Origin: a virus
Lineage: Duplodnaviria; Caudoviricetes
Virus record (IMG/VR): IMGVR_UViG_3300040806_001491
Location: 1-61,545 of that record
DNA: 61,545 nt
Direction: 5' to 3' (one strand)
Shown here piece after piece: positions 27,513 through 59,861 of the stretch. A model generated the notes under the pieces. The model did no database searches and had not been told where the DNA came from. It was given only the letters and a program-made list of their open reading frames with translations. Made by a program: the position numbers and the translations under genes. Numbering within the stretch: position 1 is the stretch's first letter; every line of letters starts with the position of its first letter.

Positions 27513-27520
27513 TATTTATT
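27513..27520 (-). promoter_or_regulatory. Late promoter AATAAATA
   Basis: Overlaps the stop codon of the giant wedge gene. Confidence 0.55.
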
Positions 27521-33500: not shown

Positions 33501-36500
33501 ACCATTAGCACTTGTTACAGCAAGTTGATCTCCATCAAATCCAATTCTAAATCCAAAGTTTTCAACTGGTTCTGCATTTTCACTTGTTAATGTCTGTGTA
33601 AGTTGATACCCATTAGAACCAAGCAAGTATATAAAGACTTTTCCTTGGAACTTAGAATTGCTATCTGCATCCGGAGCACTTACAGCAATTAATTTTCCAT
33701 CGTCGGATACAGCTACCTGCGAACCAAAGCCTGGTGCATCTTCAGGTTGTTCTATAACTTGATATAAAGAATGATGGAATTCATCAAGTCTGTACACGGC
33801 AATTTTAATAGTGCTATCATATTCGACCACCGAAGCTATTGTTTTTCCGTTTTCAGATGTATCAAAATTGCTTGCAAATCCTATTAATGGATTGTCCTGA
33901 TCTTGATTAACTACAAGAACTGGATTTATTGCTGTTTCACCAGCAAAATTATATCCTGAAGTATTTGGTAGGTAACCTACAAAGTCAATATGATCGCCAA
34001 TTTCGCTCCATTTGTTTGGATTAAATGGTCCATCTTGCATATTAATTTTTGCTCTGTACCATGTTCCGTTATATTCAACAACATCATTTGCTGAATATAA
34101 TGAGTTTTGACTATAAGATCCTTTATAGTTTGGATCTTTTGCAAGAGTCCAGTTATAAGAAATATTATTTAAGTTTCCGTATAGCACCTGATGCAATCGG
34201 CCCCTAGATTCAGGACTTACATTTCCTCGATCGTCAGCGTGTGATTCGTCACTATTAATTAATAATCTAGTATAATCAGGTGTTTGTGCAAGTTTAATAA
34301 CCGAACCAAGTTTTCTTTCATTTTCTCTATTAGGAAGTATAAATCCATTAACTAAATTAAATGTATTATTAAATTCGTTATATTCGTATACGAAATAAGC
34401 ACCTTCATTTGTAAAGGAACTTGCATCTTTTGTATTGTCAATAGGAATATTATTAACTTGTACCCAGTCGTTATTTTGATCGCTAGGGTATAATGGGCTT
34501 CTTGATATTCCTAACCTAGTTTCTTCTATCCAAGATTGCCACTCGATGTTTGTTACAAACTTAGTTTTAAAACTAGCCGTATCTATTGGAGTAAAGACAT
34601 TAACATCGTAATCAATTTGATCAGGTATTGCAAAATTATCTTGTTCATAAAATACAGCAACCTTACCGATATCTCCATCAGCAAGTTGTCTTGCTTGTAT
34701 ACTACCTAGTTCAACTTCATTGCCGTTAGGAAAGATTTTCTTAATAGTTGATAAAAAGTCTGTCTCGCCGTATCTTCGACCAAATGTAAAAGTACCGTCA
34801 ATTATTTTAATCCAGAGTCTTGCACTTAAATTATCTCTTTGATAGTGCATAACTCTTGCTCTAGCACCATTTTCAGCTTCTTGTACTAAGTCACCAACTT
34901 CAAACTCTATATCAGTACGAGTTAGTCTTATGTCTAACCATCCATCCCATAAATCATCAGGATCTGATATAGTATGTGTCTTATTAACAATGTCAAAACT
35001 TAGACCAGTGTCGCTTAGATCCCATTCTACTCTATCTCTAATGAATCTAATCTTTGTATCTATATCTAAAGGATTACCGTCAGCATCAAGCTGTCTTGCT
35101 TTGTTTAACCAAAGACCTAATTTAACTTCTTCGCCGTTTTCTAATTTTTGTGAAGCCACATCAGACACGGCTTTATCTAAACGAACTACCCATCTATTGT
35201 CTAACTGATCAACAGGTAATATATCTCCAAGCCCAGCATTACCTACATAACTAAGAACACGCATCATGCTTGTTTCTTTTTGGAATGCTGTTGTTCCTGC
35301 TATTTGGAATGGTGGATTATTTTGCTGTGATAATAAACTATTACTAGTAGGCAACGGTGTTGCTGTTGCTGTATCTAGTGTTAAATCTTGATAAACTAAA
35401 CCTCTGTATGTATCAACTTGTGGATCGTCAACAACATATGTTCCGTTAGTTTCTATTTCCCAATATCCTCCAAGACTTTGTGATCTTTCTATAGTATCTG
35501 CTAGAGGTCTTGCATAGTTTCCTATTAAAAACACATTGTCAATTTTTAGTTGGTCGTTGTTAGCAAAAATACCATTTTTATTATTAACGTAAAGTACCAT
35601 CTTGGCACTTTCAATTCTTACTTTTACTACAGTGGCATTACCTGTATCAGTTGTAACAACATCGCCTACTTCTGGTATTGCCAACGGATTTTCTATGTAA
35701 AATACTTCATCAACTTTTCGTCTAATTTCGTGAGGACCAGCTTCTAAAAATGTGTTTGTGATATTTGCATATGCATTGTTAAATGGTTTTTCTATTTTGC
35801 TAATGAAGCCTGCAAAATCTCCCGGTGCGCTTGATCCTAACAATCCTACACTTGCATCTACAGGTATAGTAAGAGCTGCATCTCTATAAAGTTCTACAGT
35901 ATCATTTGCAACAGCCTTAACATAAAATCTTTGATTTTGTAAACCTGCTATACCAAAATTTTCTTTGACATTTAATGCAATGTCTGGATTTGAATTATCA
36001 AAGGAAGGTATTACCAAAGGATTTCCATTTGCATCAAATTGAGTTGCAGATGTTTCTAAAAATCCATTGTTAGGTATTTCTGTAAGTAATATTTCGTCAC
36101 CAGTAGCTAAGTTAATTTCCAATTGACCACTAAATGCACTAAATGCTCTTGCACTATTTTCTTGATATGTTCCTGCCCACGCTGTGCCGTTTACAGTTTG
36201 TGTTAAATCGATATCTGAATATAGTTCAAATTCATCTGCATTTATAACTCTAATATAATACTCATTGTTTATATCTACTAATCCAACGGCGCCTGCTATT
36301 ATTATACGTTGTCCGTTTTCAAATTCGTGACTTTCGCTTTCAATTCTAACAGGATTAAGTTTAAAAACTTGATTTACTACACGAACAAAACTATCAAACG
36401 TAACATGAATTCTGTCAGTATCATCTACTGAAGTTTCAAAAATATTTTTTATCGGTATCTTGTTTATTGGTCGTAAATTGTTAGTAATTTCGCTGTGTTC

Positions 36501-39500
36501 AAAATAAACATAATCCCCTGGCTTAGATCCATCATACATATCGTCAGGTGCTCTAACTAGTACATGATCTGTTACAAAAGGTATAGTAACAGGATTGCTA
36601 TCTGATACATCTTGATTAATATCGAAGTTTGGATTTTCTTGTTCGATGCCTAGAGGATAGTCTCCTGTTATTAAAGTAGGAATGTTTGAATAGCTCCCGT
36701 AAGTATCAAAAAGGTTGTCTTCTATTTTAGAAATTAAATCAAAACTATTAAACGAAACGTTGTCTACTTGACCTTTAACACTTCTTCTAGATTGCCAAAG
36801 ATTTTCAGCATATGATACAATAGCTGCATTATTATAGTTTGCGGTTATATCAAATTCATCCTTAAATGCACTCTTTACATTTGATGCAAAAGGTGCTGAT
36901 ACAGCTATATAGTTGCCGTCTTGGCTGACCGCAACACTTTGTCCGTAACGACTATTAGAACTTGCATAATTGTCAATTGGTTCTAGTGTAACTAAAGGTT
37001 CTAGATTTTCATTTTCTGAGGTTCTTTGATAAACATACACTTTGCCGTCGCCGTCTTCTGGAGCGCCAATAGCTAGTATTTTGTTATCAGCCGAAGCTGA
37101 TAAAGATTGACCGTAAAATGTTGCTGTAGTTGTTGGATTGTTTATTGTTTCGTTTAATGCATAACTTTTATTAGATTTAATAACATTCCATTTTCCACTA
37201 CCGTTATCATCAACCCAAATTATTTCGCCGTCATCAACATCTTGTTGTGCATATAAGTTTGCATCACTTAACGTTTTAACTCTATTACTAGTAAACTTAG
37301 AAACTATTCCATTTGCTTCATCAACAGAATCGGGTATATTTTCTCCTAGATTAATTGTAACTCGATTTAATACTGAAGTTACAACTTCATAAAAACCGTT
37401 AAATCCTGGAACATCTTGTATTCCGATAATGTCACCTTCTACAAACGATGATAGTCTATCAAAGAATATAGTTGCAGAAGTGCCGCCTCCGACTTGTGCT
37501 GAGGTTACTTTTAATCCACTGTCAATATGTTTGTATACATTCCAATCTTCACTATCAAATGTAGCCCAAACATATTCTCCTTGCTCAATCTCTTCAATTG
37601 GAATATTTAAAATATCTGCTTTTTGTAGTATAGTCCACTGTACATCATCAGCTCTAACATATCCTGCTGTTTTTACAGGATTTTCTTCTACATATTTTGT
37701 AGGAAATGGTGCATGAGTATAATCTTTTGTTTTTAGATAAACTTCGTCTTCGGTTAATCTATAAACTAAGTCTGTTGGTACATCCGGTACTTCATTTGTA
37801 AGTAATACTGGCTGCGGACTTATTAAAAATTTATCTTCTGATAATTTAAATTCAACTTCTTCAAATCCGTCTGCTGCACCATATTGTCCTAATTTTACAG
37901 CCCATTCTTCGTAAAATTCAATGCTGTCTTTATTAGCACTACTTAAACTATCAAATAATTTTGACAATGCATTCTTAGTACCTTTATCGGCAATCATTCC
38001 TTGATAGAACTTATATTGACTAACATCGTCATTAATAATGTTAGAAAGATACTGGCGTTTTTGATAACCAATCAAGTGTTGGGCAATTCTTTGTTGCTCA
38101 ACATCAAAATTGTCAGTATCTAAATCATAAAAATCTGCAAACTGATTTACTTTATATTCAAGATTAGGTTTTAATCCAGGTTCGGGCTTTTCATTTAATC
38201 TATACCATTTGTTTGGATCAAAAGTTTCTGAACCAGTTACTTTGTTAATTGCGGTATAGTAAAACTCTTTGTTCTTTACAATATCTCCAATGGCATAATC
38301 TTTCCATTGTTCCCAATCATATACAATAGCATCATCATATAAGAATCCTGGAATGTTTAAAGTACCTTTCCAGTCGGCGGTTCTATAACCTAAAACTCTA
38401 ATTCTTTCTTGTCTATATCCAGTTTCAGGTTCATATATTACGTCTTTAAATGCTGTTTTAGAATCTAAAACAACGGTATGTTCTTTTTGAACTAACGGAA
38501 GTTTAATTGCATATACACCATCTGCTGTATTTTTAAGAGTAAGGTCAAAACCGTTTTCGTCTTGACGTACAATGTTTAAGAAATCTTCTCTAATTTGTGT
38601 TCCGTCTGCTTTTAAAACACTATACTCATAAAAGCTATCAAAAATATTATCAACCATAGTATTATCTCTATAGAATCTAATATTTTGTGCAGCTGGACTT
38701 AAACTAATTAATGTTCCTGAGTCCCAGTTTTGCGATGCCCAGAATAAAAATTCTTTGGCACTTAGTTTCCAATTTTCTACACTAGCAATATCTGAATTAT
38801 AATTTTCAAATATAAATCCTAGGTCTTCTAGATACTCGCCATAGCCTATTAAGAAGTCGACTACTTCTTGACTTGTTCTAAGTTGTGTTCCGTATGGCAA
38901 AATTTGGACTGATGACTTGTCAAAAGAAGTTCTTATTAATGCACTTCTACCTCCGTCGTTAGGTAGTTCAGGAAGTACTACAAACTTTGTTCCCTCAAAT
39001 GTTGAAGTACTTGTGTGTGTTTCTAAAGTACGATAATATCTATCATTATATTTTACAACTTTACCTTGCACATATTGTTTGTTTTCATTCCATTCGGTAA
39101 AAGATTCACTAACTCCGCCAACAGTAATATTAGTGTCACTTGAACGCTCGTTATACTGATAATACCTAAAGACAGGATCTGTAGAATCATAGCCTCGTAT
39201 AATCCAACCACTTGCAGATTTTTCAACTACTACTCCGCTATAATTTGCAACATCAATTGGACTGGATGTAGTTAAAATTACTCTGTAATTTTCTTCAGGA
39301 ACAAATACGTTGCCTTCATTTAAAGGTGTTCTAGAATCTAAAATAAGATTTAGTTTTGACTTGTCTGTAAATCCACCTAACTTAAATGCAATTTGATTTT
39401 CTAATCTTGTTAATCTTTCTTTATAGTTTGAAAAATTAGTTAATACATTGCTTGCTAGGTAGTTTGCTATAAAGTTTACTAACCCTAATGTAAATATACG

Positions 39501-42500
39501 CTGTACATTTCCGGCATCATTAGGAAAAATTAAATCAGAAGTTTTAATTCTTCTTCCAGTTTCACTATAAACAAGTTGGCCTGCACTATTTCTTACAGTT
39601 CTTAGTCTATCAAAAGCAAGACCTATAGTTTTAGCAGGTTTGTTTAGTATAAACGACTTAATTAGTGCAAACGGATATTCAGAGCTTCGTCTCCAAGCTG
39701 TTTCAACCGGTGCTTCGTCTCCAAACACAAATGCTTTTCTTGTTAAACTATTAACATAATTTTTTGCATAGTTACTATCTAAAGGCGAAAGTAGTTCACC
39801 TTGATCGTTTACTGGCAAGTGATTTGTTAATCCGGGTCTAGCATATTGTGATAGTGTTCTAATAGGTCTACCAGGTTGTCTGATTTTACCTTTTTCAATA
39901 TCTTGCCATAAAATTAAGTTATTACTTGTATATGGCGCTGGTCCGTACTGATCTTCCCACCAATCAGGTTTAATACTAAACCCTAACATTTCCCAAGGGT
40001 GAGTGTGCGGATGATCGGTATCATATGCATTTTTGTATACAGCTCTCCAAAAACCAGGTAAAGGCTTACCGTCAGGCGATGACATAGAGCTATAATTGTA
40101 TGTAAATGTATTTGCTCTTTGATAAAACGCAAAACTAGTATAATCTTCATTTCCAATGACATTTAACCAAGATGCAAAGTCTTTTATCATTGCTGTATCA
40201 AGATTTGATCTAGGTATCCTGTCAGAGTCTCTGTACTCGCCTTCTATAAATTCATGTATATCAAAAATACTAGTGTCGTAATCTAGTTTAAGATTATTAT
40301 ATATTCTTCTTTCAATTTCAAGGATAAGATCGTCTCTATAATCATCGTATGCTATAATCTTAGAACCATCGTGACCTATTATAATTTTTTTAGGTTCAAT
40401 ATACGTGTCGTCAACTGTAATCTCCGGAATATACTTAGGGTATAATCCAAGTTTTGTTGGAGTAGGAGGTATGTAATTGCCGTCTGTAGTTTCATACTCG
40501 TAGATATCAATTCTATCATTTAAATTTTTTGTTGCTGTAATTTGACAAAAACCTTCATTATTAAAAGTATAGTCTTTATCAATAATAAGTTGTGTATCAT
40601 TTATATAAACGCCTACAGCTTTTACGTCAATAGCGTCTTCATTAAAAGTCCTTGACAATGCATAAAATTCATTTTCTGGATCAAAAACTGTGTAGGTAAT
40701 TCGTTTTGCTCCTGTAACAGGAGCCATGTCCGAAAAGTAAAATGGCATAGTAATATTCTTATCACTATTCATTTCTCTTAGAATTATATCAACATGCTCT
40801 TTAGGCGATCCATCAAAACCTGTAGAATAAGCTGTTTGTAAAAACAGTCTTTTAAATTTAGCATACTCTCTACGACTATAATCTATTGCCTTAATAATAT
40901 TATTATCTTTATCAGTTAAATGATACAGTGCTAAATTAATAGGTCCAGAGTGTTGTAAAAACTTTTTACCATAAATGCCTACGTTTCCGAGATCTCTTAA
41001 ATTACTAACTCCTGGATATGCTCCAGAAAATCCGTCAACTTCTGAAACTATACTTTCTACATGCTCATTAACTTCACCTAATGTAAAATCATTAATTTCA
41101 TTGTTTAAAGGATTTCTTTCATAATTGCTTGGAATCTCGTATAAACCATTTTGGTTTTTACTTGCCGAGCTTTGTGTTTTTATTAAAATTATATCATTTT
41201 CATTTGCAGAAGAATTTAAACGCACTACTTTAGTAGAAACTTTGTTAACAATTTCAAAGTCTACACCTTCAAATAGCAAATTGTTGTTTTGGAAAAGTTT
41301 TACTTTAATATCATTTATTAAATGGCTGTTGTTGTAAACATCGATATTAAAATCTGTTTGTCCTTCGTTGGCAATGTATTGTCTTATAACATCTTGACGA
41401 CTATTGCCTTTGGCTTTTATCCAGCCATTAACAGATTTAAAATTTTCTCGAGACGTATGCTGGTGTAACACACAATTACTTGTAGAAACAGTTATTGGCT
41501 GTGCTGCAACTACATACTCAAACTCATCAGCAACTAAATTAAAATCATAAACAATATCACCCACATTTGATATAGATCTATATGATAATGGAAAACCTAG
41601 TTCAGTATCAACAGTGCCTGATCCAATTCTATAAGAAAATACTTTATTTCCCCTAAAAGTAGATCCAGGATATTCGTTCAAGTCTCCGTAACTAGATCCG
41701 TTGTCATCAAATAAATCAAATAATGGTGCTTGATTAACTTTAGTTTTTTCCTGTGTTAAATTCCAAGAAGCACCGTTAAAATAAAATAATCTTCCTTGAT
41801 AAGCCTGGCCATTGAGTGCTAATACAACTTCGTTTAATTTTGGTACAGAATCAGGTTCTTCTACAAGAGTAATTTGTCTTTTACCGTTATGATTAATAAA
41901 TCTAACTTTAAAAATTTTGCCTGCTTCTCTAATATCTTGTTCAGCGGTAAACAATACACGCATTCCGTCAACTAAATCAATTCCGTCTATGTTGTATCCT
42001 AATGATCCTTCAATAGTACTAAAAATGTCTGTAGTAAATGTATCAATTAAGTCAACATTAGATTTGCCTTCTGTTCCATATTGAAACAAATGCAAGCCTG
42101 CATTAAATTCTATAATAGGTCTTGTTGCACGAGCGGTTTGATCAACACTAATAGGCTGACTGTTATACTCTGCACTATTTTCAATTACTGTTTTATGAAA
42201 CCATCTATTGCCTCTGCTCCAAGCGTTTCTATCCGAACTAGCACGATTAACAACAATATAGTCCTTAGTTGCTGTATACCCTGCTGCATTGTCAAACGGC
42301 AATCTGTCAAATGCTTGTGTGTCGAAAGGAATTTCTAAGTCTTCATTGTAAGTGCTTGGTATTTCTAAATCGTCTTCACTTACTAACTGAATTCTCTCTC
42401 CAACACCTTCAACATACCATTGGCCTTTGCTATATTTTTCAGGAGTAACTTCTCCAATAAACTCTAGTTTCATACCATTAGAAAGAGGAAATCCTCTTTC

Positions 42501-43385
42501 TGTTGTATAATTTTTCTTTCCTAAAATTTCTTTTTCAACATCAATTTTTGTATTTTCTTCGATATCTAGAATTTGTATCATTCCAGAATTATTAATATCT
42601 TCTGATGAGACGTAATATAAAACATCAGGAGCACCTTCTGGTACTGTAAATATTATTGTTCCTTGTGCAACACCTTGTTCAGATATACCATCTTCATAAT
42701 TAAATCCTGCATCCAATGTTTTTGAGGTCCTAATATTAAATGGCATATCAGGAGCATCAATATCAAACTTATATGTTTGACCTCTATACAAAATTATTGT
42801 AGGTGTTTGTGTTAGTCCGTCTGGCGAAAATACATATGCTTCGTTATCAATATTTGTTTCTAAAGTAATTGTATATGTAGATTCTACAGCTTTACTTTGT
42901 CCAAATATTTGTACCGCTTGAGGGCCGTTTGGTAGCCAATAGTATTCACGAAAGTTTACAAACATGTCCCAGTTTACATTAGGATTCCATGCATAGTATT
43001 CTTGACTGTTTAAAAAATTTTGATTTTCAACATTGCCGCCAAAGTTTTTAATTTGATTGATATAATCATTATAATCTTTATAAAGTACAACGTTTCCAAT
43101 ATCGTTTTTAATAATAGTAGCAGGCTCTAGCTGATAGTCTTCTCTTTGTTTAGAAGTATCGCCAATATAATTGTCATCTGCTAAAAATGCTTTAGAATGT
43201 TTTCTTCCAAAGTACCCGTTAATTTTTTCAGCAACACCTGGTCTTGTAACCTGATCTAATGTTGCTTCTAAAAACTTTTTGTTTACGCTAGTTCTAAAAT
43301 ATCTAGGTAATAGAGATGCACTGTTCCTTTTTTCATTATTACTTGTTGGAACTGGGGATTCATTCTGGTCGTCATTGTAGGCCAT
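27516..43385 (-). CDS. Giant baseplate wedge protein (gp7-like position), 5289 aa
   Basis: Uninterrupted 15.9-kb ORF coupled to the gp6-like gene; FG-GAP-like blades (YGQSVAVS.DG..IAVSAP), GxGY repeats, YIREVKPY segment, C-terminal LRRGTLGT module. Confidence 0.7.
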   Translation of the reverse strand: MAYNDDQNESPVPTSNNEKRNSASLLPRYFRTSVNKKFLEATLDQVTRPGVAEKINGYFGRKHSKAFLADDNYIGDTSKQREDYQLEPATIIKNDIGNVVLYKDYNDYINQIKNFGGNVENQNFLNSQEYYAWNPNVNWDMFVNFREYYWLPNGPQAVQIFGQSKAVESTYTITLETNIDNEAYVFSPDGLTQTPTIILYRGQTYKFDIDAPDMPFNIRTSKTLDAGFNYEDGISEQGVAQGTIIFTVPEGAPDVLYYVSSEDINNSGMIQILDIEENTKIDVEKEILGKKNYTTERGFPLSNGMKLEFIGEVTPEKYSKGQWYVEGVGERIQLVSEDDLEIPSTYNEDLEIPFDTQAFDRLPFDNAAGYTATKDYIVVNRASSDRNAWSRGNRWFHKTVIENSAEYNSQPISVDQTARATRPIIEFNAGLHLFQYGTEGKSNVDLIDTFTTDIFSTIEGSLGYNIDGIDLVDGMRVLFTAEQDIREAGKIFKVRFINHNGKRQITLVEEPDSVPKLNEVVLALNGQAYQGRLFYFNGASWNLTQEKTKVNQAPLFDLFDDNGSSYGDLNEYPGSTFRGNKVFSYRIGSGTVDTELGFPLSYRSISNVGDIVYDFNLVADEFEYVVAAQPITVSTSNCVLHQHTSRENFKSVNGWIKAKGNSRQDVIRQYIANEGQTDFNIDVYNNSHLINDIKVKLFQNNNLLFEGVDFEIVNKVSTKVVRLNSSANENDIILIKTQSSASKNQNGLYEIPSNYERNPLNNEINDFTLGEVNEHVESIVSEVDGFSGAYPGVSNLRDLGNVGIYGKKFLQHSGPINLALYHLTDKDNNIIKAIDYSRREYAKFKRLFLQTAYSTGFDGSPKEHVDIILREMNSDKNITMPFYFSDMAPVTGAKRITYTVFDPENEFYALSRTFNEDAIDVKAVGVYINDTQLIIDKDYTFNNEGFCQITATKNLNDRIDIYEYETTDGNYIPPTPTKLGLYPKYIPEITVDDTYIEPKKIIIGHDGSKIIAYDDYRDDLILEIERRIYNNLKLDYDTSIFDIHEFIEGEYRDSDRIPRSNLDTAMIKDFASWLNVIGNEDYTSFAFYQRANTFTYNYSSMSSPDGKPLPGFWRAVYKNAYDTDHPHTHPWEMLGFSIKPDWWEDQYGPAPYTSNNLILWQDIEKGKIRQPGRPIRTLSQYARPGLTNHLPVNDQGELLSPLDSNYAKNYVNSLTRKAFVFGDEAPVETAWRRSSEYPFALIKSFILNKPAKTIGLAFDRLRTVRNSAGQLVYSETGRRIKTSDLIFPNDAGNVQRIFTLGLVNFIANYLASNVLTNFSNYKERLTRLENQIAFKLGGFTDKSKLNLILDSRTPLNEGNVFVPEENYRVILTTSSPIDVANYSGVVVEKSASGWIIRGYDSTDPVFRYYQYNERSSDTNITVGGVSESFTEWNENKQYVQGKVVKYNDRYYRTLETHTSTSTFEGTKFVVLPELPNDGGRSALIRTSFDKSSVQILPYGTQLRTSQEVVDFLIGYGEYLEDLGFIFENYNSDIASVENWKLSAKEFLFWASQNWDSGTLISLSPAAQNIRFYRDNTMVDNIFDSFYEYSVLKADGTQIREDFLNIVRQDENGFDLTLKNTADGVYAIKLPLVQKEHTVVLDSKTAFKDVIYEPETGYRQERIRVLGYRTADWKGTLNIPGFLYDDAIVYDWEQWKDYAIGDIVKNKEFYYTAINKVTGSETFDPNKWYRLNEKPEPGLKPNLEYKVNQFADFYDLDTDNFDVEQQRIAQHLIGYQKRQYLSNIINDDVSQYKFYQGMIADKGTKNALSKLFDSLSSANKDSIEFYEEWAVKLGQYGAADGFEEVEFKLSEDKFLISPQPVLLTNEVPDVPTDLVYRLTEDEVYLKTKDYTHAPFPTKYVEENPVKTAGYVRADDVQWTILQKADILNIPIEEIEQGEYVWATFDSEDWNVYKHIDSGLKVTSAQVGGGTSATIFFDRLSSFVEGDIIGIQDVPGFNGFYEVVTSVLNRVTINLGENIPDSVDEANGIVSKFTSNRVKTLSDANLYAQQDVDDGEIIWVDDNGSGKWNVIKSNKSYALNETINNPTTTATFYGQSLSASADNKILAIGAPEDGDGKVYVYQRTSENENLEPLVTLEPIDNYASSNSRYGQSVAVSQDGNYIAVSAPFASNVKSAFKDEFDITANYNNAAIVSYAENLWQSRRSVKGQVDNVSFNSFDLISKIEDNLFDTYGSYSNIPTLITGDYPLGIEQENPNFDINQDVSDSNPVTIPFVTDHVLVRAPDDMYDGSKPGDYVYFEHSEITNNLRPINKIPIKNIFETSVDDTDRIHVTFDSFVRVVNQVFKLNPVRIESESHEFENGQRIIIAGAVGLVDINNEYYIRVINADEFELYSDIDLTQTVNGTAWAGTYQENSARAFSAFSGQLEINLATGDEILLTEIPNNGFLETSATQFDANGNPLVIPSFDNSNPDIALNVKENFGIAGLQNQRFYVKAVANDTVELYRDAALTIPVDASVGLLGSSAPGDFAGFISKIEKPFNNAYANITNTFLEAGPHEIRRKVDEVFYIENPLAIPEVGDVVTTDTGNATVVKVRIESAKMVLYVNNKNGIFANNDQLKIDNVFLIGNYARPLADTIERSQSLGGYWEIETNGTYVVDDPQVDTYRGLVYQDLTLDTATATPLPTSNSLLSQQNNPPFQIAGTTAFQKETSMMRVLSYVGNAGLGDILPVDQLDNRWVVRLDKAVSDVASQKLENGEEVKLGLWLNKARQLDADGNPLDIDTKIRFIRDRVEWDLSDTGLSFDIVNKTHTISDPDDLWDGWLDIRLTRTDIEFEVGDLVQEAENGARARVMHYQRDNLSARLWIKIIDGTFTFGRRYGETDFLSTIKKIFPNGNEVELGSIQARQLADGDIGKVAVFYEQDNFAIPDQIDYDVNVFTPIDTASFKTKFVTNIEWQSWIEETRLGISRSPLYPSDQNNDWVQVNNIPIDNTKDASSFTNEGAYFVYEYNEFNNTFNLVNGFILPNRENERKLGSVIKLAQTPDYTRLLINSDESHADDRGNVSPESRGRLHQVLYGNLNNISYNWTLAKDPNYKGSYSQNSLYSANDVVEYNGTWYRAKINMQDGPFNPNKWSEIGDHIDFVGYLPNTSGYNFAGETAINPVLVVNQDQDNPLIGFASNFDTSENGKTIASVVEYDSTIKIAVYRLDEFHHSLYQVIEQPEDAPGFGSQVAVSDDGKLIAVSAPDADSNSKFQGKVFIYLLGSNGYQLTQTLTSENAEPVENFGFRIGFDGDQLAVTSANGDIRLDTTFDGNNTFLDNGFTNFVRRVIDSGVVYLYERINNTLVYGQQISYRDFDVYGFGKNLLIKQNHVYVGLTNYGDANGQIINFRKTPGDNSWVVHREPTDQVNINKFKGCFLYNTKSSELIRYLDIVDPVANKLIGVAEQELTYKTYYDPATYNVSEEAFVDLFNTWGKDQVGQLWWDLSRAKFLNAYQGDINYSQFAWNRLAFGASIDVYEWVETTVLPSEWDNLSGTNEGARRNITGTSLYGDRLYVQNQTYDKVAQRFITRYYYWVRRPTKVPNVENRKKSADEVASLIENPNSKLVPFVSLAGNDKFILHNVKKDISDNDVALNFRYWTIDNQDQNIHNEYQIISEGLSTSKPKRDIELKWFDSLCEQDKFGRIVPDSTLSDKQKYGSLFTPRQSWFKNPVEARKEYFERVNRVLDQTLLLDNFNIDSLLDFDPQPTDISRHYDVSVDTEDELRFIGTVRAETAQLIPVIQDGKIVSVTIENPGRGYKDITFDVNVSSKRKGPTLTINGTGSEAIIETYINNLGQIIETEVLAQGNYYDANTTITVRPLSALVRADSTIDGKWAIYTYDATTREWTQGQRQSYDVRDYWNYSDWYAEGYSTLTNIDFLIDEPYQLNIIDDNIGDIVKVENSGSGGWVLYRKSVNKDTPQYTENYEVVGRQDGTIQFTNSCITGTNNAVELRKIFEAIRDNLFVDELEIEYNNLFFAQLRYVLSEQKYVDWLFKTSFVKAKHNVGELTQRVTFQNDNLPSYEEYIREVKPYKTNIREYLSSYEKQENTGSVVTDFDLTPVYNEATGIIEPKSIKVDENVLTNLPESITEYPERHWLDNAALQVIRIDIEDGGTGYTEVPVITIRGGGGRDATAKAFLGQGSIKKIEITNPGTGYFGIPTIEVEGTQVEGSIPAKISLVMGNEKTRSIKVTQRFDRVSGQYETTNLIETETFTASGSQLKYYLKWPLNITKNKTKITIDGQEPLSSEYSVGNEDDKTKSYKRQIGYVLFVNTPPKDSTIVIEYNRNMDLLNAQDRINLLYESNEGLLGKDLSQLMDGIDYGGVQVKSFEFGQNLGWDNAGWYTDSWDSYDESYEDIVFAYDGSTTVFQLEQALDDNTDYNVYVNGVRIDDPNYDGSTRTYVDPTSGETLALANPNAIMPTLTTSSEFYDAENLTIKFENVVELESLYKDQSKIIIRKSTSDGSFLPEGIGLDTVLQGGNLAYGTATGYAPEDITVDGDGFVTPTTSKGPEELVPGQLLDVLDIKVVDRPADGGSLISVRNYQSDQGQTVFDLSILPHSSEACFVKVNGTIVKNYEVNYEEGFLTFDSGLNAGDSVNIFSMGVNGENLLDIDNFVGDGVTQIFVSNVLYPKTATTVDGKEFLEKQDVSVFVTIDGNPVEVNIFEADESYGDNKGVIAFKFVIAPEENAKIQYAIYQSAEQSFSQATVDQFTADGSTAAYTLAQSPFDSLPLTHNIIVKVGNKILTPDYNEEFTVQPGIRNFTLDLGQIPYSSVSPENVLVFRNGTKLSFLDEFSWDFANTTVSLFDNVGDIGDTIEIFVLGTGEYRFDTNTRISLTSLDGRFQEGEEVTFTSGSSTYTYVIKSFANNILEIKGTAQEVIDLFNDGNTVTIEGIISEATAQISGTGLIEGGDIVILENVPLQNETIEIFTFSKHDIQGIERQVKTVTSRITTQAGSRDYYNYHLLTRGIVSLRKPALSVDYVWVTLNGTLLDANVDYTLSRFNDKVEIKIPVTADDIIEVIHFAAQKTNSKFGYRIFKDMLNRTHYKRLNSDKVFQLASDLHYNDDTIELVDASGIGTPSKEINSPGVLFIDGERIEYFTVNGNTLGQLRRGTLGTGTKNVYAAGTEVEDQGRQETIPYVDESRTLQFITDGESNTYSLDFVPSSSDEIEVFAQGKRLRKGPLQVFDNTINQDSPEADVTVPAEYTIEGGTLTLETTLPEDVKLYTVRKIGKTWVNSGEQLRYARNSIADFLRETTTSLPK

Positions 43386-55898: not shown

Positions 55899-56909
55899 TT
55901 GTTTAAGAAAGCTGCCGTTTTTACGGATATACATTTTGGACTAAAAAGTAATTCAAAGATACACAATCAAGATTGTGAAGAATTTGTTGACTGGTTTATA
56001 GCACAAGCTAAGGAAAACGGTTGTGAAACCGGTATTTTCTGTGGTGACTGGCATCACAACAGGAATAGTCTTAACCTTACAACCATGGACGCTACTATTC
56101 GTAGTTTAGAAAAACTAGGAAATAGTTTCGAACAGTTCTTTTACTTTCCTGGAAACCACGATTTGTACTACAAAGACAAGCGTGACATCCATTCTGTTGA
56201 GTTTGGCAAGTATGTGCCAGGCATAACAGTTGTAAACGAAATTTTAGAAAAAGAAGATGTTGCACTTATACCTTGGTTAGTAGGTGACGAATGGAAACAA
56301 ATAGAAAAAATTAAAGCCAAATATATGTTTGGACACTTTGAATTGCCAAGTTTTTATATGAATGCTATGGTTAAGATGCCTGATCATGGAGATTTGCGAC
56401 CACAACACTTTGTAAATCAAGATTATGTGTTTTCAGGACACTTCCATAAACGTCAAGTACAAGGTAAAATTCATTACATTGGTAATGCATTTCCGCACAA
56501 TTATGCAGATGCATGGGACGATGAACGTGGCATGATGATACTTGACAAAGAAAATAGTGAAGAACCAAGGTACATCAATTGGCCAGACTGTCCGAAATAT
56601 AGAACTGTAAAATTGTCTCAGTTATTAGATCCTAATTCGGATATCATTAAAAGTAAGATGTATTTGCGTGTTACTATTGACGTTCCGATTAGCTATGAGG
56701 AAGCACAGTTTATTAAGGAAACGTATATTAATCAATACGATTGTAGAGAAATTACACTTATTCCTCAAAAACAAGTAGAAGAAATTACAACAGACGTTGA
56801 CATTACACAATTTGAAAGTGTTGATCAAATTGTAACGAATGAGATTGTAGCTATCGAAAGTGAGAGCTACAAAACAAAAACACTACTAGACATATACAAT
56901 AATTTGTAG
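55899..56909 (+). CDS. gp47: Recombination endonuclease subunit (Mre11/SbcD-like)
   Basis: DIHFG, GDW.H, GNHD, GHFE, SGHFH metallophosphoesterase motifs; TTG start with GAGGA RBS. Confidence 0.9.
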   Translation: MFKKAAVFTDIHFGLKSNSKIHNQDCEEFVDWFIAQAKENGCETGIFCGDWHHNRNSLNLTTMDATIRSLEKLGNSFEQFFYFPGNHDLYYKDKRDIHSVEFGKYVPGITVVNEILEKEDVALIPWLVGDEWKQIEKIKAKYMFGHFELPSFYMNAMVKMPDHGDLRPQHFVNQDYVFSGHFHKRQVQGKIHYIGNAFPHNYADAWDDERGMMILDKENSEEPRYINWPDCPKYRTVKLSQLLDPNSDIIKSKMYLRVTIDVPISYEEAQFIKETYINQYDCREITLIPQKQVEEITTDVDITQFESVDQIVTNEIVAIESESYKTKTLLDIYNNL

Positions 56910-56916
56910 GATTCCA

Positions 56917-58689
56917 ATGATTAGAATAAAAGATTTGACAGTTAAAAATTTTATGAGTGTTGGCAATCAAACTCAAGCGGTTGATTTTAACAAAGACAAC
57001 CTTACCTTAGTGTTAGGAGAAAATCTAGACCAAGGAGGCGATGACAGCGGCTCGCGTAATGGTACAGGTAAAACAACTATTATTAATGCATTAAGTTATG
57101 CATTATACGGTCAAGCACTAACAAATATTAAACGTAACAACCTTATCAATAAAACAAACGGTAAAGGTATGTTAGTTACACTTCATTTCGAAAAAAATAA
57201 TACTGATTACCGAATTGAAAGAGGACGGTCGCCTAATGTACTAAAGTTTTTTATTAACGACCAAGAGCAAGAACTTATTGACGAGTCGCAAGGCGATAGT
57301 CGTAAAACACAAGAAGACATTAACGACTTGTTAGGTATGAGTCACGACATGTTTAAGCACGTTGTAGCACTCAACACCTATACAGAACCGTTTTTATCAA
57401 TGCGAGCAAACGACCAACGTGCTATCATTGAACAGTTATTAGGTATAACAATACTAAGTGAAAAGGCAGAAGCACTAAAAGAACAAGTTAGACAAACTAA
57501 AGATCTAATTACTGAAGAAACTCTCAAAATTAATGCAATACAAAGTGCCAATGAAAAAATTGATGTTACAATTAGTAGTTTAAAGAGCAAGCAAAAAGCC
57601 TGGCTTGGTAAACAGTCTACAGATATTATAAAATTAAAAGAATCTATCGACGAATTAGAACGTGTAAACATTGAAAAAGAGCTCGAAGCACACGAACAAT
57701 TAGCAAATTGGACTGAGATGAATAATGCTGTTACGGCTCTTAATAAAGAAAAAAGCACACTAGAGAGTGCATTACTACGTGCTACTAAATCTGTAGAAAA
57801 AGCAGAAAAAGACATCGCAAATCTCGAAGATGCTACTTGTTATACTTGTGGTCAAGCACTACACGACGAGAAAAAGCAAGAAATTGAAGAACGAAAGAGC
57901 AAAGAATTAAATGATGCGATTGCATATCAAACTGAAGTTGCTGATAAACTAACTGAAGTTATCGAAGGCTTAACAGAAATTGGTAACATTAATGGTCGTC
58001 CTAATACGTTTTATGAAACAGCCAAAGAAGCATATGAACATAGACAAAACGTTGATAGTTTAAGACAGGCTTGGCAGAATAAAAAAGACGAGGTTGATCC
58101 TTATAAAGAACAAATTGAAGACCTTGAACAAACAGCAATTCAAGATATTGATTGGACTATTGTAAATGATCTTAATAGTTTTAAAGACCATCAAGATTTT
58201 CTGTTAAAACTTCTTACAAACAAAGACAGTTTTATTCGTAAGAAAATTATTGATCAGAATTTAATGTATCTAAACAATAGATTAACTTCTTACTTAGATA
58301 AATTAGGATTGCCGCATCAAGTAGTATTCCAAAATGATCTAAATGTAGAAATTACACAACTTGGACAAGACTTAGATTTTGATAACTTGTCAAGAGGTGA
58401 GCGTAATAGATTAATTCTTGGTATGAGTTTTGCATTCCGTGACGTTTGGGAGAGCTTGTATCAAAAAATTAATCTGTTGTTTATCGATGAACTTATTGAT
58501 AGCGGTATGGATGCAAACGGAGTTGAAAATAGTTTAGGCATTCTTAAAAAGATGGGTCGTGAAGGCGAAAAGAATGTATACCTAATTTCACACAAAGACG
58601 AATTAGTCGGTCGTGTTAACAATGTAATGAAAGTTGTAAAAGAAAACGGATTTACAAGTTACGAAAACGACATTGAGATATTTGAATGA
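56917..58689 (+). CDS. gp46: Recombination ATPase subunit (Rad50/SbcC-like)
   Basis: KNFMSVG, Walker A NGTGKTT, coiled coil with Zn hook CYTC, LSRGE signature, LFIDE, ISH. Confidence 0.92.
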   Translation: MIRIKDLTVKNFMSVGNQTQAVDFNKDNLTLVLGENLDQGGDDSGSRNGTGKTTIINALSYALYGQALTNIKRNNLINKTNGKGMLVTLHFEKNNTDYRIERGRSPNVLKFFINDQEQELIDESQGDSRKTQEDINDLLGMSHDMFKHVVALNTYTEPFLSMRANDQRAIIEQLLGITILSEKAEALKEQVRQTKDLITEETLKINAIQSANEKIDVTISSLKSKQKAWLGKQSTDIIKLKESIDELERVNIEKELEAHEQLANWTEMNNAVTALNKEKSTLESALLRATKSVEKAEKDIANLEDATCYTCGQALHDEKKQEIEERKSKELNDAIAYQTEVADKLTEVIEGLTEIGNINGRPNTFYETAKEAYEHRQNVDSLRQAWQNKKDEVDPYKEQIEDLEQTAIQDIDWTIVNDLNSFKDHQDFLLKLLTNKDSFIRKKIIDQNLMYLNNRLTSYLDKLGLPHQVVFQNDLNVEITQLGQDLDFDNLSRGERNRLILGMSFAFRDVWESLYQKINLLFIDELIDSGMDANGVENSLGILKKMGREGEKNVYLISHKDELVGRVNNVMKVVKENGFTSYENDIEIFE

Positions 58690-58892
58690 GTGAACTTGAG
58701 AACGACACACACGACGAACTTGTGTTAGCATACTTAGAATATTTTAAGGCTAACGAAAAGTTTGAACAGAGAAAGTCTTATAGAACAAGACTTGCTGCTC
58801 GTCGTGCGTTGAGATCTCTAAGAGAACTTGCAAAAACACGAATGGACGAAATACAAGACACATATTATTCAAAAGGCACCGAAGAAGAATAG
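58686..58892 (+). CDS. Small basic helical hypothetical protein
   Basis: 68 aa, ATGA overlap with gp46; AARRALRSLRELAKTR basic helix. Confidence 0.6.
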   Translation: MSELENDTHDELVLAYLEYFKANEKFEQRKSYRTRLAARRALRSLRELAKTRMDEIQDTYYSKGTEEE

Positions 58893-58898
58893 GCATTT

Positions 58899-58906
58899 TA
58901 TAAGTA
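58899..58906 (+). promoter_or_regulatory. Late promoter variant TATAAGTA
   Basis: 5 nt before the ATG at 58912. Confidence 0.55.
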
Positions 58907-58911
58907 AGTTC

Positions 58912-59361
58912 ATGCAATGGACTTATGAAGGCAAACCAGTTGATACAATACCAGACGAGTATGAAGGTTTTGTTTATCTCATAACCAATCTAACAACTGG
59001 GCAAAAGTACATAGGCAAGAAACTAGCAAAGTTTAAAACCACTAAGCCACCTCTCAAAGGCAAAAAGAATAAACGCAGAGGCTATAAAGAATCAGACTGG
59101 CGTGACTATTGGGGATCGTCAGACAGATTAAACGCAGATGTACAGGCACTAGGCCCAGAAAACTTCACAAGAGAAATATTATATCTTTGCAAAGGCAGAG
59201 GCGAAATGTCCTACATAGAGGCAAGAGAGCAATTTGACCGCCGTGTATTAGAGAGCGACGAGTATTACAATGGAATTATTAATGTTAGAGTTGGCGGTTC
59301 CGACAAATTGCGACAGGCATTGCTAGAACATAGCATCAAGGCAAAACAATCCGACACATAA
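58912..59361 (+). CDS. Stand-alone GIY-YIG (Seg-like) nuclease, 149 aa
   Basis: GFVYLITN...KYIGKK, YWGSS, F.REIL, E..EQ, YYN. The ATG at 58912 is preferred over the track's start at 58828. Confidence 0.8.
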   Translation: MQWTYEGKPVDTIPDEYEGFVYLITNLTTGQKYIGKKLAKFKTTKPPLKGKKNKRRGYKESDWRDYWGSSDRLNADVQALGPENFTREILYLCKGRGEMSYIEAREQFDRRVLESDEYYNGIINVRVGGSDKLRQALLEHSIKAKQSDT

Positions 59362-59777
59362 GGTTAGCGGGCCAGTTCAAAAATACCGCTGTGGAAAAAG
59401 CATCCGTATAGGAGCACACGTAACATACTGAGCGGCATCCGGTAGTAGGATGTTTGATTGGTATAGGCGGAATGTCGGCTGTCGAAAAAACGCACAATGT
59501 ACATAAAAACCGTATGCACAGGAACGAAGCAACGGGTAAAAGTATAGTGTATTAGCTATAATTTAGAAATTATTGCTTATAAGCTATATCTTGATGTCGA
59601 CGTAGGTTGGGAAAGGTCAGAGCCCATTGTACAGCGCAAAATACCTACTTCCAAGTCTCGGCTGTGACGAACTCACATGAAGCTAATTTTGAGACAGGCT
59701 GGAACCGTAACAGGTTCCGTCTGACTGAAACAATCTACATGAAACTTAAACATTAACACTTCGTGTTAATGTGTTTT
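59362..59777 (+). ncRNA. Candidate large structured non-coding RNA (no family assigned)
   Basis: ORF-free region with about 9 helices, several containing G-U pairs that work on the plus strand, plus long-range complementarities and a 3' hairpin followed by Ts. Confidence 0.55.
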
Positions 59778-59853
59778 ATCATAATAACTTATATCATACA
59801 AACGAAGTGTATAGTTTGAGCGTTAGCGAAAACTTGTTTCGTGCAACGAAACA
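59751..59853. other. Array of four short hairpins with GNA/GNNA mini-loops
   Basis: CATTAACAC-TTC-GTGTTAATG; ATACA..C-GAA-G.TGTAT; AGTTT-GAGC-GTTA-GCGA-AAACT; TGTTTCGT-GCA-ACGAAACA. Confidence 0.65.
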
Positions 59854-59861
59854 TATAAATA
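59854..59861 (+). promoter_or_regulatory. Canonical T4 late promoter TATAAATA
   Basis: Exact T4 consensus upstream of the AAGGA RBS and the ATG at 59894. Confidence 0.8.

What the first reader, a model, noticed from the sequence alone, without database searches (positions are those of the whole stretch)
59362..59777. ~400-nt highly structured non-coding element in an otherwise gap-free region
Seen (plus-strand pairings): AGCGG 59366-70/CCGCT 59386-90; ATACTGA 59425-31/TTGGTAT 59458-64 enclosing GGCATCC/GGATGTT; ATGTCGGC 59472-79/GTCGACGT 59596-603; CCGT..TGC/GCA.ACGG 59510-35; an AU-rich arm 59543-88; GTAGGT 59602-07/ACCTAC 59643-48 enclosing TGGG/CCCA; GTCTCGG 59655-61/TTGAGAC 59689-95 enclosing TGTGA/TCACA; GGAACC/GGTTCC 59701-18. 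Linkers are GAAA-rich and ACATGAA occurs twice. Every other intergenic gap in the window is under ~80 bp. Inference: a large folded RNA (ribozyme, RNP scaffold or packaging-related RNA) that I cannot match to a known class by eye.
Basis: partly seen in the sequence, partly recalled or inferred. Interest (0 to 1): 0.85.

Follow-up and report, generated by a model that had tools for sequence, protein, structure and literature searches.

The report
New large structured phage RNA
The gap holds a real, highly folded RNA gene of about 430 bases that matches no described RNA family, is shared by hundreds of uncultured marine phages, and carries two short boxes that always mutate together, so it probably recognises a still unknown partner.

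Summary
Window 59351-59779 (+ strand) is a structured RNA; a leader reaches back to at least 59315. On 41 diverse homologues, 71 proposed pairs are 88.9% paired against 35-39% when partners are slid. 47 pairs show double (compensatory) changes, and 0 of 500 shuffles reach this. There are two crossing pseudoknots. Rfam 15 gives nothing, ARAGORN gives nothing, and 50,697 deposited phage genomes give no match.

The RNA is an autonomous gene. Divergent copies sit behind promoter-like sites with no ORF, or behind unrelated ORFs. In this jumbo-phage clade (gp47-gp46-sORF context) a 149-aa stand-alone GIY-YIG nuclease gene lies inside the RNA's leader, and its last codons form one pseudoknot strand.

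The strangest feature is two 7-8-nt boxes (59675-82 and 59737-44). They stay identical to each other in 132 of 135 distinct copies through at least 14 sequence variants. No complementary partner was found in cis.

Function was not shown. My best reading is a trans-acting RNA that presents two equal recognition boxes to a lineage-specific partner.

The parts
58686..58892 (+). Small ORF (68 aa, arginine-rich middle). Its 3' end carries two AGGCA boxes (58874-78, 58891-95). Context gene, no Pfam family.
   Evidence: tblastn finds it upstream of the nuclease gene in most loci of this clade
58899..58906 (+). TATAAGTA, a late-promoter-like octamer 5 nt before the nuclease ATG. The same or a similar octamer (TATAAGTA, TATAAATA) stands before ORF-less copies of the RNA.
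   Evidence: sequence; L333 and L327; upstream contexts. Its role as a promoter is inferred.
58912..59361 (+). Stand-alone GIY-YIG nuclease gene (149 aa, SegE-type catalytic domain only).
   Evidence: PF19835 E 9.9e-36 over residues 3-123; phrog_447 E 1.7e-39
59315..59343 (+). Leader with two AGGCA boxes (59315-19, 59339-43), overprinted on the last codons of the nuclease ORF.
   Evidence: AGGCA occurs 294 times against 24.4 expected in the 200 nt upstream of 106 distinct copies, with peaks about 25 and 45 nt before the RNA body
59351..59356 (+). PK1 5' strand (CCGACA). It pairs with the loop at 59473-78. The stop codon TAA 59359-61 lies just behind it.
   Evidence: 99.6% paired, 5 of 6 pairs with double changes; top mutual-information pairs
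59366..59390 (+). H1 hairpin (59366-70 / 59386-90)
59391..59419 (+). H2: outer 3 bp (59391-93 / 59417-19) and inner hairpin (59400-05 / 59411-15)
   Evidence: outer 100% paired with UA/AU/GC; inner stem has many pair types
59425..59464 (+). H3: conserved outer stem with an interchangeable inner module
59466..59483 (+). H4 hairpin. Its loop 59471-78 is the PK1 3' strand.
   Evidence: 92.2% paired, 5 of 5 pairs with double changes
59491..59503 (+). PK2 5' strand (59499-503, plus extension 59491-93). It pairs with 59628-36 and crosses H7.
   Evidence: 92.5% paired, 5 of 5 pairs covary; at least 12 different complementary versions listed
59510..59535 (+). H5 (59510-13 / 59532-35), with the invariant AACGA in its loop
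59540..59592 (+). H6, a variable-length arm. In other copies it is often capped by GAAA, GCAA or GTAA loops.
59593..59601 (+). Near-invariant joining strand GATGTCGAC
59602..59648 (+). H7 (59602-07 / 59643-48). It encloses hairpin H7b (59609-11 / 59623-25, 11-nt loop) and the PK2 3' strand 59628-36.
59655..59695 (+). H8 (59655-59 / 59691-95), whose loop holds repeat unit A
59675..59682 (+). Box R1 (ACATGAAG)
   Evidence: identical to R2 over at least 7 nt in 132 of 135 distinct copies; best mutual-information partner of each variable position is the same position of R2
59697..59722 (+). H9, a 10-bp hairpin
   Evidence: 95.1% paired; CG to UA at the closing pair, UG/CG/AU/GU at the fourth pair
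59723..59745 (+). Repeat unit B (single-stranded tail) with box R2 at 59737-44 (ACATGAAA)
59750..59779 (+). Terminator-like hairpin (10 bp, loop TTC) followed by GTTTTAT
   Evidence: arms covary in A1
59814..59861 (+). Downstream conserved hairpins (59814-33, 59836-52) and TATAAATA (59854-61) before the next gene (ATG 59894). Probably not part of the RNA.
   Evidence: Calling TATAAATA the late-promoter consensus of T4-type phages is recalled knowledge.

Best explanation
Window 59351 to about 59779 (+ strand), with a leader from at least 59315, encodes a member of an undescribed family of large phage non-coding RNAs.

Shown:
- It folds into about twelve helices, including two crossing pseudoknots: PK1 (59351-56 with 59473-78) and PK2 (59491-503 with 59628-36, crossing H7).
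- The joining strands are invariant, and the peripheral arms H3 and H6 are freely exchangeable.
- There is one copy per record.
- It is an autonomous gene. In some phages it follows a promoter-like site with no ORF, and in others it follows unrelated ORFs.

Inferred: in this jumbo-phage clade, a domain-only GIY-YIG nuclease gene of the seg type has settled inside the RNA's leader, between AGGCA boxes. The nuclease mRNA therefore runs into the RNA, and its stop codon lies between PK1 and H1.

Inferred mechanism: the folded core holds two equivalent single-stranded units, A in the loop of H8 and B in the 3' tail. Each ends in the same 7-8-nt box. The boxes change between lineages but stay identical within a molecule, and no complement exists in cis. 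The RNA therefore most likely acts in trans, as an antisense-type or guide-type RNA or an RNP scaffold. It would offer two equal recognition sites to one lineage-specific partner, which is more likely a nucleic acid than a protein.
For: Structure:
- 41 sequences, 71 pairs, 88.9% paired against 35-39% when partners are slid. 47 pairs and 361 cells have double changes. 0 of 500 shuffles reach this.
- the same test on the 3' domain.
- mutual information on 123 distinct sequences.
- at least 12 complementary versions of PK2.

Strand and non-coding nature:
- 225 G.U cells against 74 A.C cells.
- Only 36 of 223 gaps are multiples of three.

No known family:
- Rfam 15 gathering threshold gives 0 hits in the window.
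- At E up to 10, only weak hits on the terminator region.
- 10 homologous loci give nothing consistent.
- No tRNA or tmRNA.
- No blastn match in 50,697 phage records with three family members as queries.

Abundance and context:
- At least 120 stretches carry the 17-mer.
- 107 of 119 new loci have the nuclease ORF upstream. 10 have no room for it, and 2 (L116, L124) have room but lack it.
- The gp47-gp46-sORF context is fixed.

Autonomy:
- 9 loci without the nuclease gene carry short ORFs (QSregVF_b-like, 53 aa, 12 aa) ending at or within about 14 nt of the same place in the leader.
- 23 of 80 metagenome loci match covariance model R1.
- Of 17 with a complete 3' domain, only 1 has the gp46/nuclease context.
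- Their neighbours include DUF6552, a class II aldolase and Gp77.
- L333, L327 and L265 have a terminator and/or a promoter-like site directly before the leader.

Copy number: one copy in the window and one per contig in five other records.

Boxes:
- 132 of 135 distinct copies share an identical string of at least 7 nt. There are 24 distinct strings, and shuffled controls mostly give 4-5 nt.
- Each variable box position has its strongest partner at the same position of the other box.
- No complement within the RNA, within -1100 to +600 or in whole loci.

Expression, weak hint only: contigs from four RNA libraries of three studies hold relatives of 58911-59718.
Against: - No function was tested. 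No partner for the boxes was found, so action in trans is an argument by elimination.
- Three copies (L027, L045, L144) differ by one base between the boxes. Identity is therefore not absolute.
- Units A and B resemble each other over about 28 nt, so repeated conversion between them cannot be fully excluded.
- The RNA-library data are contigs. They show neither strand nor ends, and they may contain DNA.
- Within the gp46-context clade the nuclease gene is always present where it could be checked. A functional tie between nuclease and RNA in that clade is therefore not excluded.
- Promoter assignments rest on consensus-like sequences only.
- The set found with the 17-mer is biased towards invariance of that block.
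Confidence: 0.5

Rival explanations
1. It is a ribozyme, either self-processing or a group-I-like relic. The invariant joining strands form a catalytic core, and the two identical boxes are two equivalent substrate sites (cleavage or ligation sites) read by the same core.
For: - Size, crossing pseudoknots, about 50 invariant unpaired positions, and variable peripheral arms that often end in GNRA-type loops.
- Neighbourhood of a GIY-YIG gene, as in phage group I introns (the comparison is recalled knowledge).
- Two identical sites would suit one active site acting twice.
Against: - No Rfam ribozyme or intron model matches, even at E up to 10.
- There are no split flanking genes. ORF-less copies stand in intergenic DNA behind promoter-like sites.
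- No internal guide complementary to the boxes was found.
- The hairpin lies between the H7 5' strand and the PK2 3' strand, and there is no hairpin between the PK2 3' strand and the H7 3' strand. This differs from the P3-P7-P8 order of group I introns (the group I order is recalled).
Confidence: 0.15
2. It is a protein-binding RNA (a decoy or RNP scaffold). The two boxes, and perhaps the AGGCA boxes of the leader, are binding sites for a small, fast-evolving RNA-binding protein or a host factor. Box identity would reflect one protein specificity, as with paired operator sites.
For: - Repeated AGGCA boxes at fixed places.
- Two equal boxes in similar local contexts.
- In this clade an arginine-rich 68-aa ORF ends in the first AGGCA boxes.
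- No nucleic-acid partner was found.
Against: - At least 14 box variants occur among otherwise close relatives (nuclease 87-97% identical). A protein would have to change specificity each time.
- No protein gene is conserved next to the RNA across all contexts.
Confidence: 0.15
3. It is a cis-acting 3' part of the nuclease mRNA. It would set the level of the homing-type nuclease, for example through the pseudoknot at the stop codon, mRNA stabilisation or termination.
For: The ORF ends between PK1 and H1. A terminating ribosome must open PK1, which is an inference. The RNA ends in a terminator-like hairpin. The nuclease gene is always present in this clade where it could be checked.
Against: The same RNA occurs with unrelated or no upstream ORFs. 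The nuclease family occurs without the RNA in Methylophilales phage Melnitz, where a 148-nt gap follows the gene. About 430 nt with two pseudoknots and about 50 invariant unpaired bases is far more than a stabiliser needs.
Confidence: 0.1
4. The repeats act at the DNA level (iteron-like origin or recombination sites, or target sites of the nuclease), or the RNA is a template with repeated ends for rolling or repeat-adding synthesis.
For: Direct repeats that evolve in concert are typical of iterons and of template RNAs with repeated ends (recalled knowledge). Units A and B are about 62 nt apart.
Against: - The region between and around the repeats shows RNA-type covariation with G.U pairs.
- Spacing varies mostly from 49 to 68 nt, without helical phasing.
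- No RVT_1 reverse transcriptase in five records, including a 2.4-Mb bin with the 335-kb contig (the genomes are incomplete).
- The unit contains stop codons in all frames in the window sequence.
Confidence: 0.05

Closest known systems
GOLLD and ROOL (large ornate RNAs of phages and prophages, function unknown)
   Same: Large, multi-helix, pseudoknotted, carried by phages as free-standing RNA genes, no protein partner known. I saw the abstract of 10.1101/2024.12.08.627333 in a search listing; the rest is recalled.
   Different: Their Rfam models do not match. This RNA is smaller (about 330-450 nt). It has two co-varying identical boxes and an AGGCA-box leader. No tRNA genes are in the window.
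Group I introns of T4-type phages with GIY-YIG homing endonuclease genes
   Same: A structured RNA with crossing long-range helices, variable peripheral arms and an adjacent GIY-YIG gene.
   Different: No exons. ORF-less copies stand in intergenic DNA behind promoter-like sites. No hit to the Rfam intron model. The helix order differs. The nuclease ORF lies in the 5' leader, not in a loop.
Nuclease- or recombinase-associated guide RNAs (omega RNA/HEARO of IscB and TnpB, IS110 bridge RNA, IS1111 seekRNA)
   Same: A structured RNA directly next to a small nuclease gene that lacks its own DNA-binding domain, with short variable single-stranded segments set in a conserved scaffold.
   Different: The RNA occurs without the nuclease in many phages. 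There is no Rfam hit. The two variable segments are identical to each other, not two different guides. No transposon ends were seen.
Template RNAs with repeated ends (telomerase RNA, DRT2- and DRT10-type ncRNAs)
   Same: Two short identical sequences flanking a segment of a structured RNA. I saw the abstracts of PMC11100668 and 10.64898/2026.06.29.735271 in the listings.
   Different: No reverse transcriptase was found in five records. Unit length is not conserved.
seg-type free-standing GIY-YIG endonucleases of T4
   Same: The catalytic domain matches PF19835. It sits between genes of a T4-like replication and recombination block.
   Different: Only 149 aa, so there is no C-terminal DNA-binding part. 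It is fixed in this clade rather than seen as present/absent.

Membership tests
Any Rfam 15 family (4227 models, including group I/II introns, RNase P, tmRNA, GOLLD, ROOL, HEARO, riboswitches) | Score at or above the family's gathering threshold | tested here: not met
   0 matches in the window. At E up to 10 there were only RsaH (24 bits against 50) and mir-287 on the terminator region. Ten homologous loci gave 4 unrelated weak hits.
Group I intron | Interrupts a gene, so that flanking exons join to an open frame or a functional RNA | tested here: not met
   No open frame continues after 59745; all three frames stop within about 20 nt. ORF-less copies lie behind promoter-like sites or terminators.
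Group I intron | Core order P3-[P4-P6]-P7-P3'-P8-P7' (recalled) | tested here: not met
   A crossing pair of helices exists (PK2 and H7). However, a hairpin lies between the H7 5' strand and the PK2 3' strand, and none lies between the PK2 3' strand and the H7 3' strand.
Group I intron | Self-splicing with guanosine | not testable with these tools
   Needs an in vitro assay.
tmRNA / tRNA-like RNA | tRNA-like domain and tag reading frame | tested here: not met
   ARAGORN finds 0 genes in the window.
Guide RNA of a neighbouring nuclease (omega-RNA type) | Obligate co-occurrence of RNA and nuclease gene | tested here: not met
   RNA without the nuclease: L116, L124, L241-L247 and 16 of 17 metagenome members. 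Nuclease without the RNA: phage Melnitz.
Guide RNA of a neighbouring nuclease (omega-RNA type) | Variable guide segment complementary to a target next to the element | tested here: inconclusive
   The variable boxes exist, but no complementary site was found in the loci or at gene starts of the window.
Reverse-transcriptase template RNA (DRT or retron type) | A reverse transcriptase gene in the same genome | tested here: not met
   PF00078 gives 0 matches in 5 of 5 records, while the control genomes do give matches. The records are incomplete.
seg-type homing endonuclease (the upstream ORF) | GIY-YIG catalytic domain | tested here: met
   PF19835 E 9.9e-36, residues 3-123 of 149.
seg-type homing endonuclease (the upstream ORF) | C-terminal DNA-binding domain (recalled as typical) | tested here: not met
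   Only 26 residues follow the Pfam match, and no second domain is present. The phrog_447 profile is 148 long.
seg-type homing endonuclease (the upstream ORF) | Present or absent among close relatives at the same site | tested here: not met
   107 of the 109 loci with room upstream have it. The two without it (L116, L124) lie in another genomic context. No empty site was found in the gp46 context.
Intrinsic terminator (3' end) | GC-containing hairpin followed by a T-run | tested here: met
   59750-72, 10 bp, then GTTTTAT. The arms covary.

The most novel reading that the evidence does not exclude
A new class of phage ribonucleic machine. A conserved, doubly pseudoknotted core, catalytic or protein-recruiting, is aimed by two identical and rapidly evolving 7-8-nt guide boxes at a lineage-specific nucleic acid. 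That target could be a host or rival-phage transcript or DNA site. In the jumbo-phage clade, the domain-only GIY-YIG nuclease encoded in the leader would have become the effector of this RNA, making it an RNA-aimed GIY-YIG nuclease.
Probability: 0.2. Interest if true: 0.92.

Novelty: categorically new. Interest (0 to 1): 0.82.

Why it matters
Large RNAs with this density of covariation, pseudoknots and invariant unpaired bases have almost always turned out to be ribozymes or cores of RNPs.

This one is abundant in uncultured marine and estuarine phages: hundreds of contigs, and several genomic contexts from jumbo myophages to contigs with podophage-type genes. It is absent from Rfam 15 and from 50,697 deposited phage genomes.

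Its two boxes covary as identical copies rather than as complements. That is a rare evolutionary signature, and it points to a partner that can be searched for directly.

Caveat: a catalogue of 10,006 unnamed candidate structured RNAs from IMG/VR exists (PMC10690425; I read passages of the main text only). Its supplementary tables were not open to me, so the motif may be listed there without description.

Tried and rejected
- **RNAalifold long-range helices.** These were GTAGGTTG/CAATCTAC, GGTCAG/CTGACT and AGCC/GGCT. I rejected them because L124 and L116 change one side only. In L241, L245 and L246 and in many metagenome members the hairpin loop changes while CTGAC stays. GGG/CCC itself covaries.
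Replaced by PK1.
- **Box complementary to the nuclease start codon region.** The start contexts do not follow the box variants.
- **Box complementary to the H4 loop.** This holds only in L124 and L245, not in L116, L241, L246 or the window.
- **Box complement anywhere in the RNA, in the loci or at gene starts of the window.** None found.
- **Reverse-transcriptase template.** No RVT_1 found.
- **Coding region.** Long stop-free frames on the - strand (median 72 codons) fit the A-over-T skew of the + strand. The gap lengths speak against coding.
- **Genome collection scan with the 17-mer.** 35 of 38 matches lack the other conserved blocks and look like chance.
- **Metagenome pattern scan.** 57 of 80 loci do not match model R1.
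- **Cultured relatives.** PA5oct has no nuclease or RNA after its gp46 homologue. Melnitz has the nuclease homologue only.
- **RNA-library contigs.**
  - Bins beyond 59718 and over the downstream gene had little or no cover.
  - Because flanks diverge more than 15% between relatives, and contigs carry no ends, this says nothing about transcript limits.
  - The first try of the look-up of sequencing runs did not complete; the same request was answered later.
  - My first filter was too strict (9 items), and I redid it.

Full report
**Setting.** The window is a 61.5-kb fragment of an uncultured virus record. It encodes T4-type late-transcription and recombination genes: a gp55-like ORF, a gp47 homologue at 55899-56909 and a gp46 homologue at 56917-58689 (AAA_23, SMC_N and Rad50 hook). 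By gp46, the nearest cultured relatives are jumbo phages such as Pseudomonas phage PA5oct and Sinorhizobium phage Phosso, at about 49% amino-acid identity. After gp46 come a 68-aa ORF, a 149-aa ORF that is a SegE-type GIY-YIG catalytic domain and nothing more (PF19835, E 9.9e-36; phrog_447), the 532-nt gap, and a gene preceded by TATAAATA. In the list of ORFs of 60 aa or more, no other gap between long ORFs exceeds about 76 nt.

- The + strand folds 4 sd better than dinucleotide shuffles. The - strand is only 2.2 sd better.
Of the 80 kept, 54 span the whole gap, always directly downstream of the nuclease gene, at 72-93% nucleotide identity.
- Their alignment shows long invariant blocks between helices whose two sides change together.
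- A scan with an invariant 17-mer added at least 120 stretches.

**Structure.** I tested the model below on 41 deliberately diverse sequences, including members that lack the 17-mer. Of 71 pairs, 88.9% of cells are paired, against 35-39% when partners are slid by 1-3 columns. 47 pairs and 361 cells have changes on both sides, and none of 500 shuffles reaches any of the five measures. The 3' domain alone gives the same picture. The parts are:
- PK1: 59351-56 with the H4 loop 59473-78 (99.6% paired, 5 of 6 pairs covary).
- H1: 59366-70 / 59386-90.
- H2: outer 59391-93 / 59417-19, inner 59400-05 / 59411-15.
- H3: 59425-31 / 59458-64, with exchangeable inner modules.
- H4: 59466-70 / 59479-83.
- PK2: 59499-503 / 59628-32, plus 59491-93 / 59634-36. 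At least 12 different complementary versions are listed.
- H5: 59510-13 / 59532-35, with an invariant AACGA in its loop.
- H6: a variable arm.
- H7: 59602-07 / 59643-48. It crosses PK2.
- H7b: 59609-11 / 59623-25.
- H8: 59655-59 / 59691-95.
- H9: a 10-bp stem, 59697-706 / 59713-22.
- A terminator-like hairpin at 59750-72 with a T-run.

G.U cells outnumber A.C cells 225 to 74, so the + strand is the RNA. Only 36 of 223 gaps are multiples of three. Three long-range helices proposed by RNAalifold fail when divergent members are added.

**Not a known family.** Rfam 15 gives no match at gathering thresholds. At E up to 10 there are only chance-level hits on the terminator region. Ten homologous loci give nothing consistent. 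ARAGORN finds no tRNA or tmRNA. Three family members used as blastn queries find nothing in 50,697 deposited phage genomes. Three full-text searches found no description.

**The RNA is its own gene.**
- In the clade of the window the order gp47-gp46-sORF-nuclease-RNA is fixed. Of 119 loci from the 17-mer scan, 107 have the nuclease ORF ending 150-570 nt before the motif. Ten have no room upstream. Two (L116, L124) have room but no nuclease.
- A pattern from those two found seven more loci (L241-L247). Here the RNA follows short ORFs: QSregVF_b-like ORFs of 66-87 aa, a 53-aa ORF, or a 12-codon ORF. These end at or within about 14 nt of the same leader position. One of these loci has a textbook TTGACA-17-TATAAT.
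- A covariance model of the 3' domain confirmed 23 of 80 metagenome loci.
- Of 17 of these loci with a complete 3' domain, only one has the gp46/nuclease context. The others follow unrelated genes (DUF6552, class II aldolase, a Gp77-type tail adaptor). Some follow a terminator and/or a promoter-like site (TATAAGTA, TATAAATA, or TTGACT-17-TAGTAT) with no ORF in between.
- There is one copy per record.
- The nuclease family also occurs without the RNA, in phage Melnitz. PA5oct has neither after its gp46 homologue.
- The leader carries AGGCA boxes at fixed places: 294 observed against 24.4 expected in 106 distinct upstream stretches. In the window two boxes lie before the nuclease gene (58874-78, 58891-95) and two at its end (59315-19, 59339-43). 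ORF-less L265 has four in a row.

I therefore infer that the nuclease gene was inserted into the leader of a pre-existing RNA gene, so that its reading frame now runs into the RNA and stops between PK1 and H1.

**The two boxes.** The 3' domain contains two imperfect direct repeats of about 28 nt. Unit A (59655-83) lies in the loop of H8. Unit B (59719-45) is the tail after H9. Each ends in an 8-nt box, R1 at 59675-82 and R2 at 59737-44.
- In 132 of 135 distinct copies the two units share an identical string of at least 7 nt at this place. Shuffled controls mostly give 4-5 nt.
- The string differs between lineages. Variants include ACATGAA, ACATAAT, ACATGAT, ACGTGAA, ACATCAA, ACAGAAA, ACAGGAA, ACATGAG, GCATGAA, GCATAAA, GTATGAA, ACAGAAT and GTCGAAA.
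- Every variable box position has its best mutual-information partner at the same position of the other box.
- The flanks keep their own constant difference (ACTCAC against ATCTAC). This argues against simple conversion of one repeat by the other.
- No complement exists within the RNA, within the loci, or at gene starts of the window.
- No reverse transcriptase was found in five records. The spacing of the boxes varies mostly from 49 to 68 nt.

**Expression.** Contigs from four RNA libraries of three studies hold relatives (at least 85% alike) of 58911-59718. This is a weak hint only. Contigs show no strand or ends, and DNA may be present in the libraries.

**Reading.**
- Shown: a conserved, doubly pseudoknotted + strand RNA of a new family. 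It is an autonomous gene, has no known relatives and carries two boxes under selection to be alike.
- Inferred: the nuclease gene is a later lodger in the leader. The RNA acts in trans and uses the two boxes as equal recognition sites for one partner that differs between lineages.
- Rivals: a ribozyme, a protein-binding scaffold, a cis element of the nuclease mRNA, or a DNA-level or template role. These are weighed in their own sections.
- The boldest reading not excluded is that the RNA aims an effector by these boxes, and that in this clade the effector is the domain-only GIY-YIG nuclease.

Noticed in passing
window 27516-43385 (- strand): A single ORF of 5289 aa, followed by further ORFs of 1166, 874 and 1000 aa on the same strand. 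This is unusually large for a phage protein.
   Followed up: no
loci L002, L003, L005, L008, L009, L022, L028, L032, L033, L035 and others: Many viral contigs end inside the RNA, at window-equivalent positions 59431-59540, which is the H3/H4/PK2 region with interchangeable modules. These are probably assembly breaks caused by strain-level module swapping.
   Followed up: partly
window 58686-58892: The 68-aa ORF before the nuclease gene has an arginine-rich stretch (RKSYRTRLAARRALRSLRELAKTR) and no Pfam family. Its stop codon lies in an AGGCA box. It could be an RNA-binding peptide.
   Followed up: no
window 59814-59852: Two conserved hairpins (GTTTGAGCGTTAGCGAAAAC and GTTTCGTGCAACGAAAC) lie between the RNA's terminator and the TATAAATA of the next gene. 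The first covaries (GAGCG..GCG to GAGTG..ACG) and marks where similarity between loci usually ends (about 59834).
   Followed up: partly
window 59756-59764 and 59804-59812: ACACTTCGT in the apex of the terminator hairpin is complementary to ACGAAGTGT about 40 nt downstream. Both are conserved rather than clearly covarying. Meaning unknown.
   Followed up: partly
L189, L160, L166: Tandem CAGACACCAAGTC-like repeats lie between the nuclease gene and the RNA leader in some relatives.
   Followed up: no
L233 and L237 (genome contigs): A bin labelled Candidatus Neomarinimicrobiota holds contigs of 335 kb and 153 kb that carry this phage RNA and the nuclease gene. They are probably jumbo-phage contigs binned with a bacterium. 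A Crocinitomicaceae bin (L201) likewise.
   Followed up: no
L241, L245, L246, L300: Small QSregVF_b/DUF3820-like ORFs (66-87 aa) take the place of the nuclease gene in front of the RNA in one divergent lineage.
   Followed up: partly
L179, L087, L093, L233, L309, L304 and others: A second, shorter type of 5' domain (beginning ...GGACACTGTTTGATCGAGG...) replaces H1-H4 and PK1 in part of the family, while PK2, H5 and the 3' domain stay the same. I did not model its structure.
   Followed up: no
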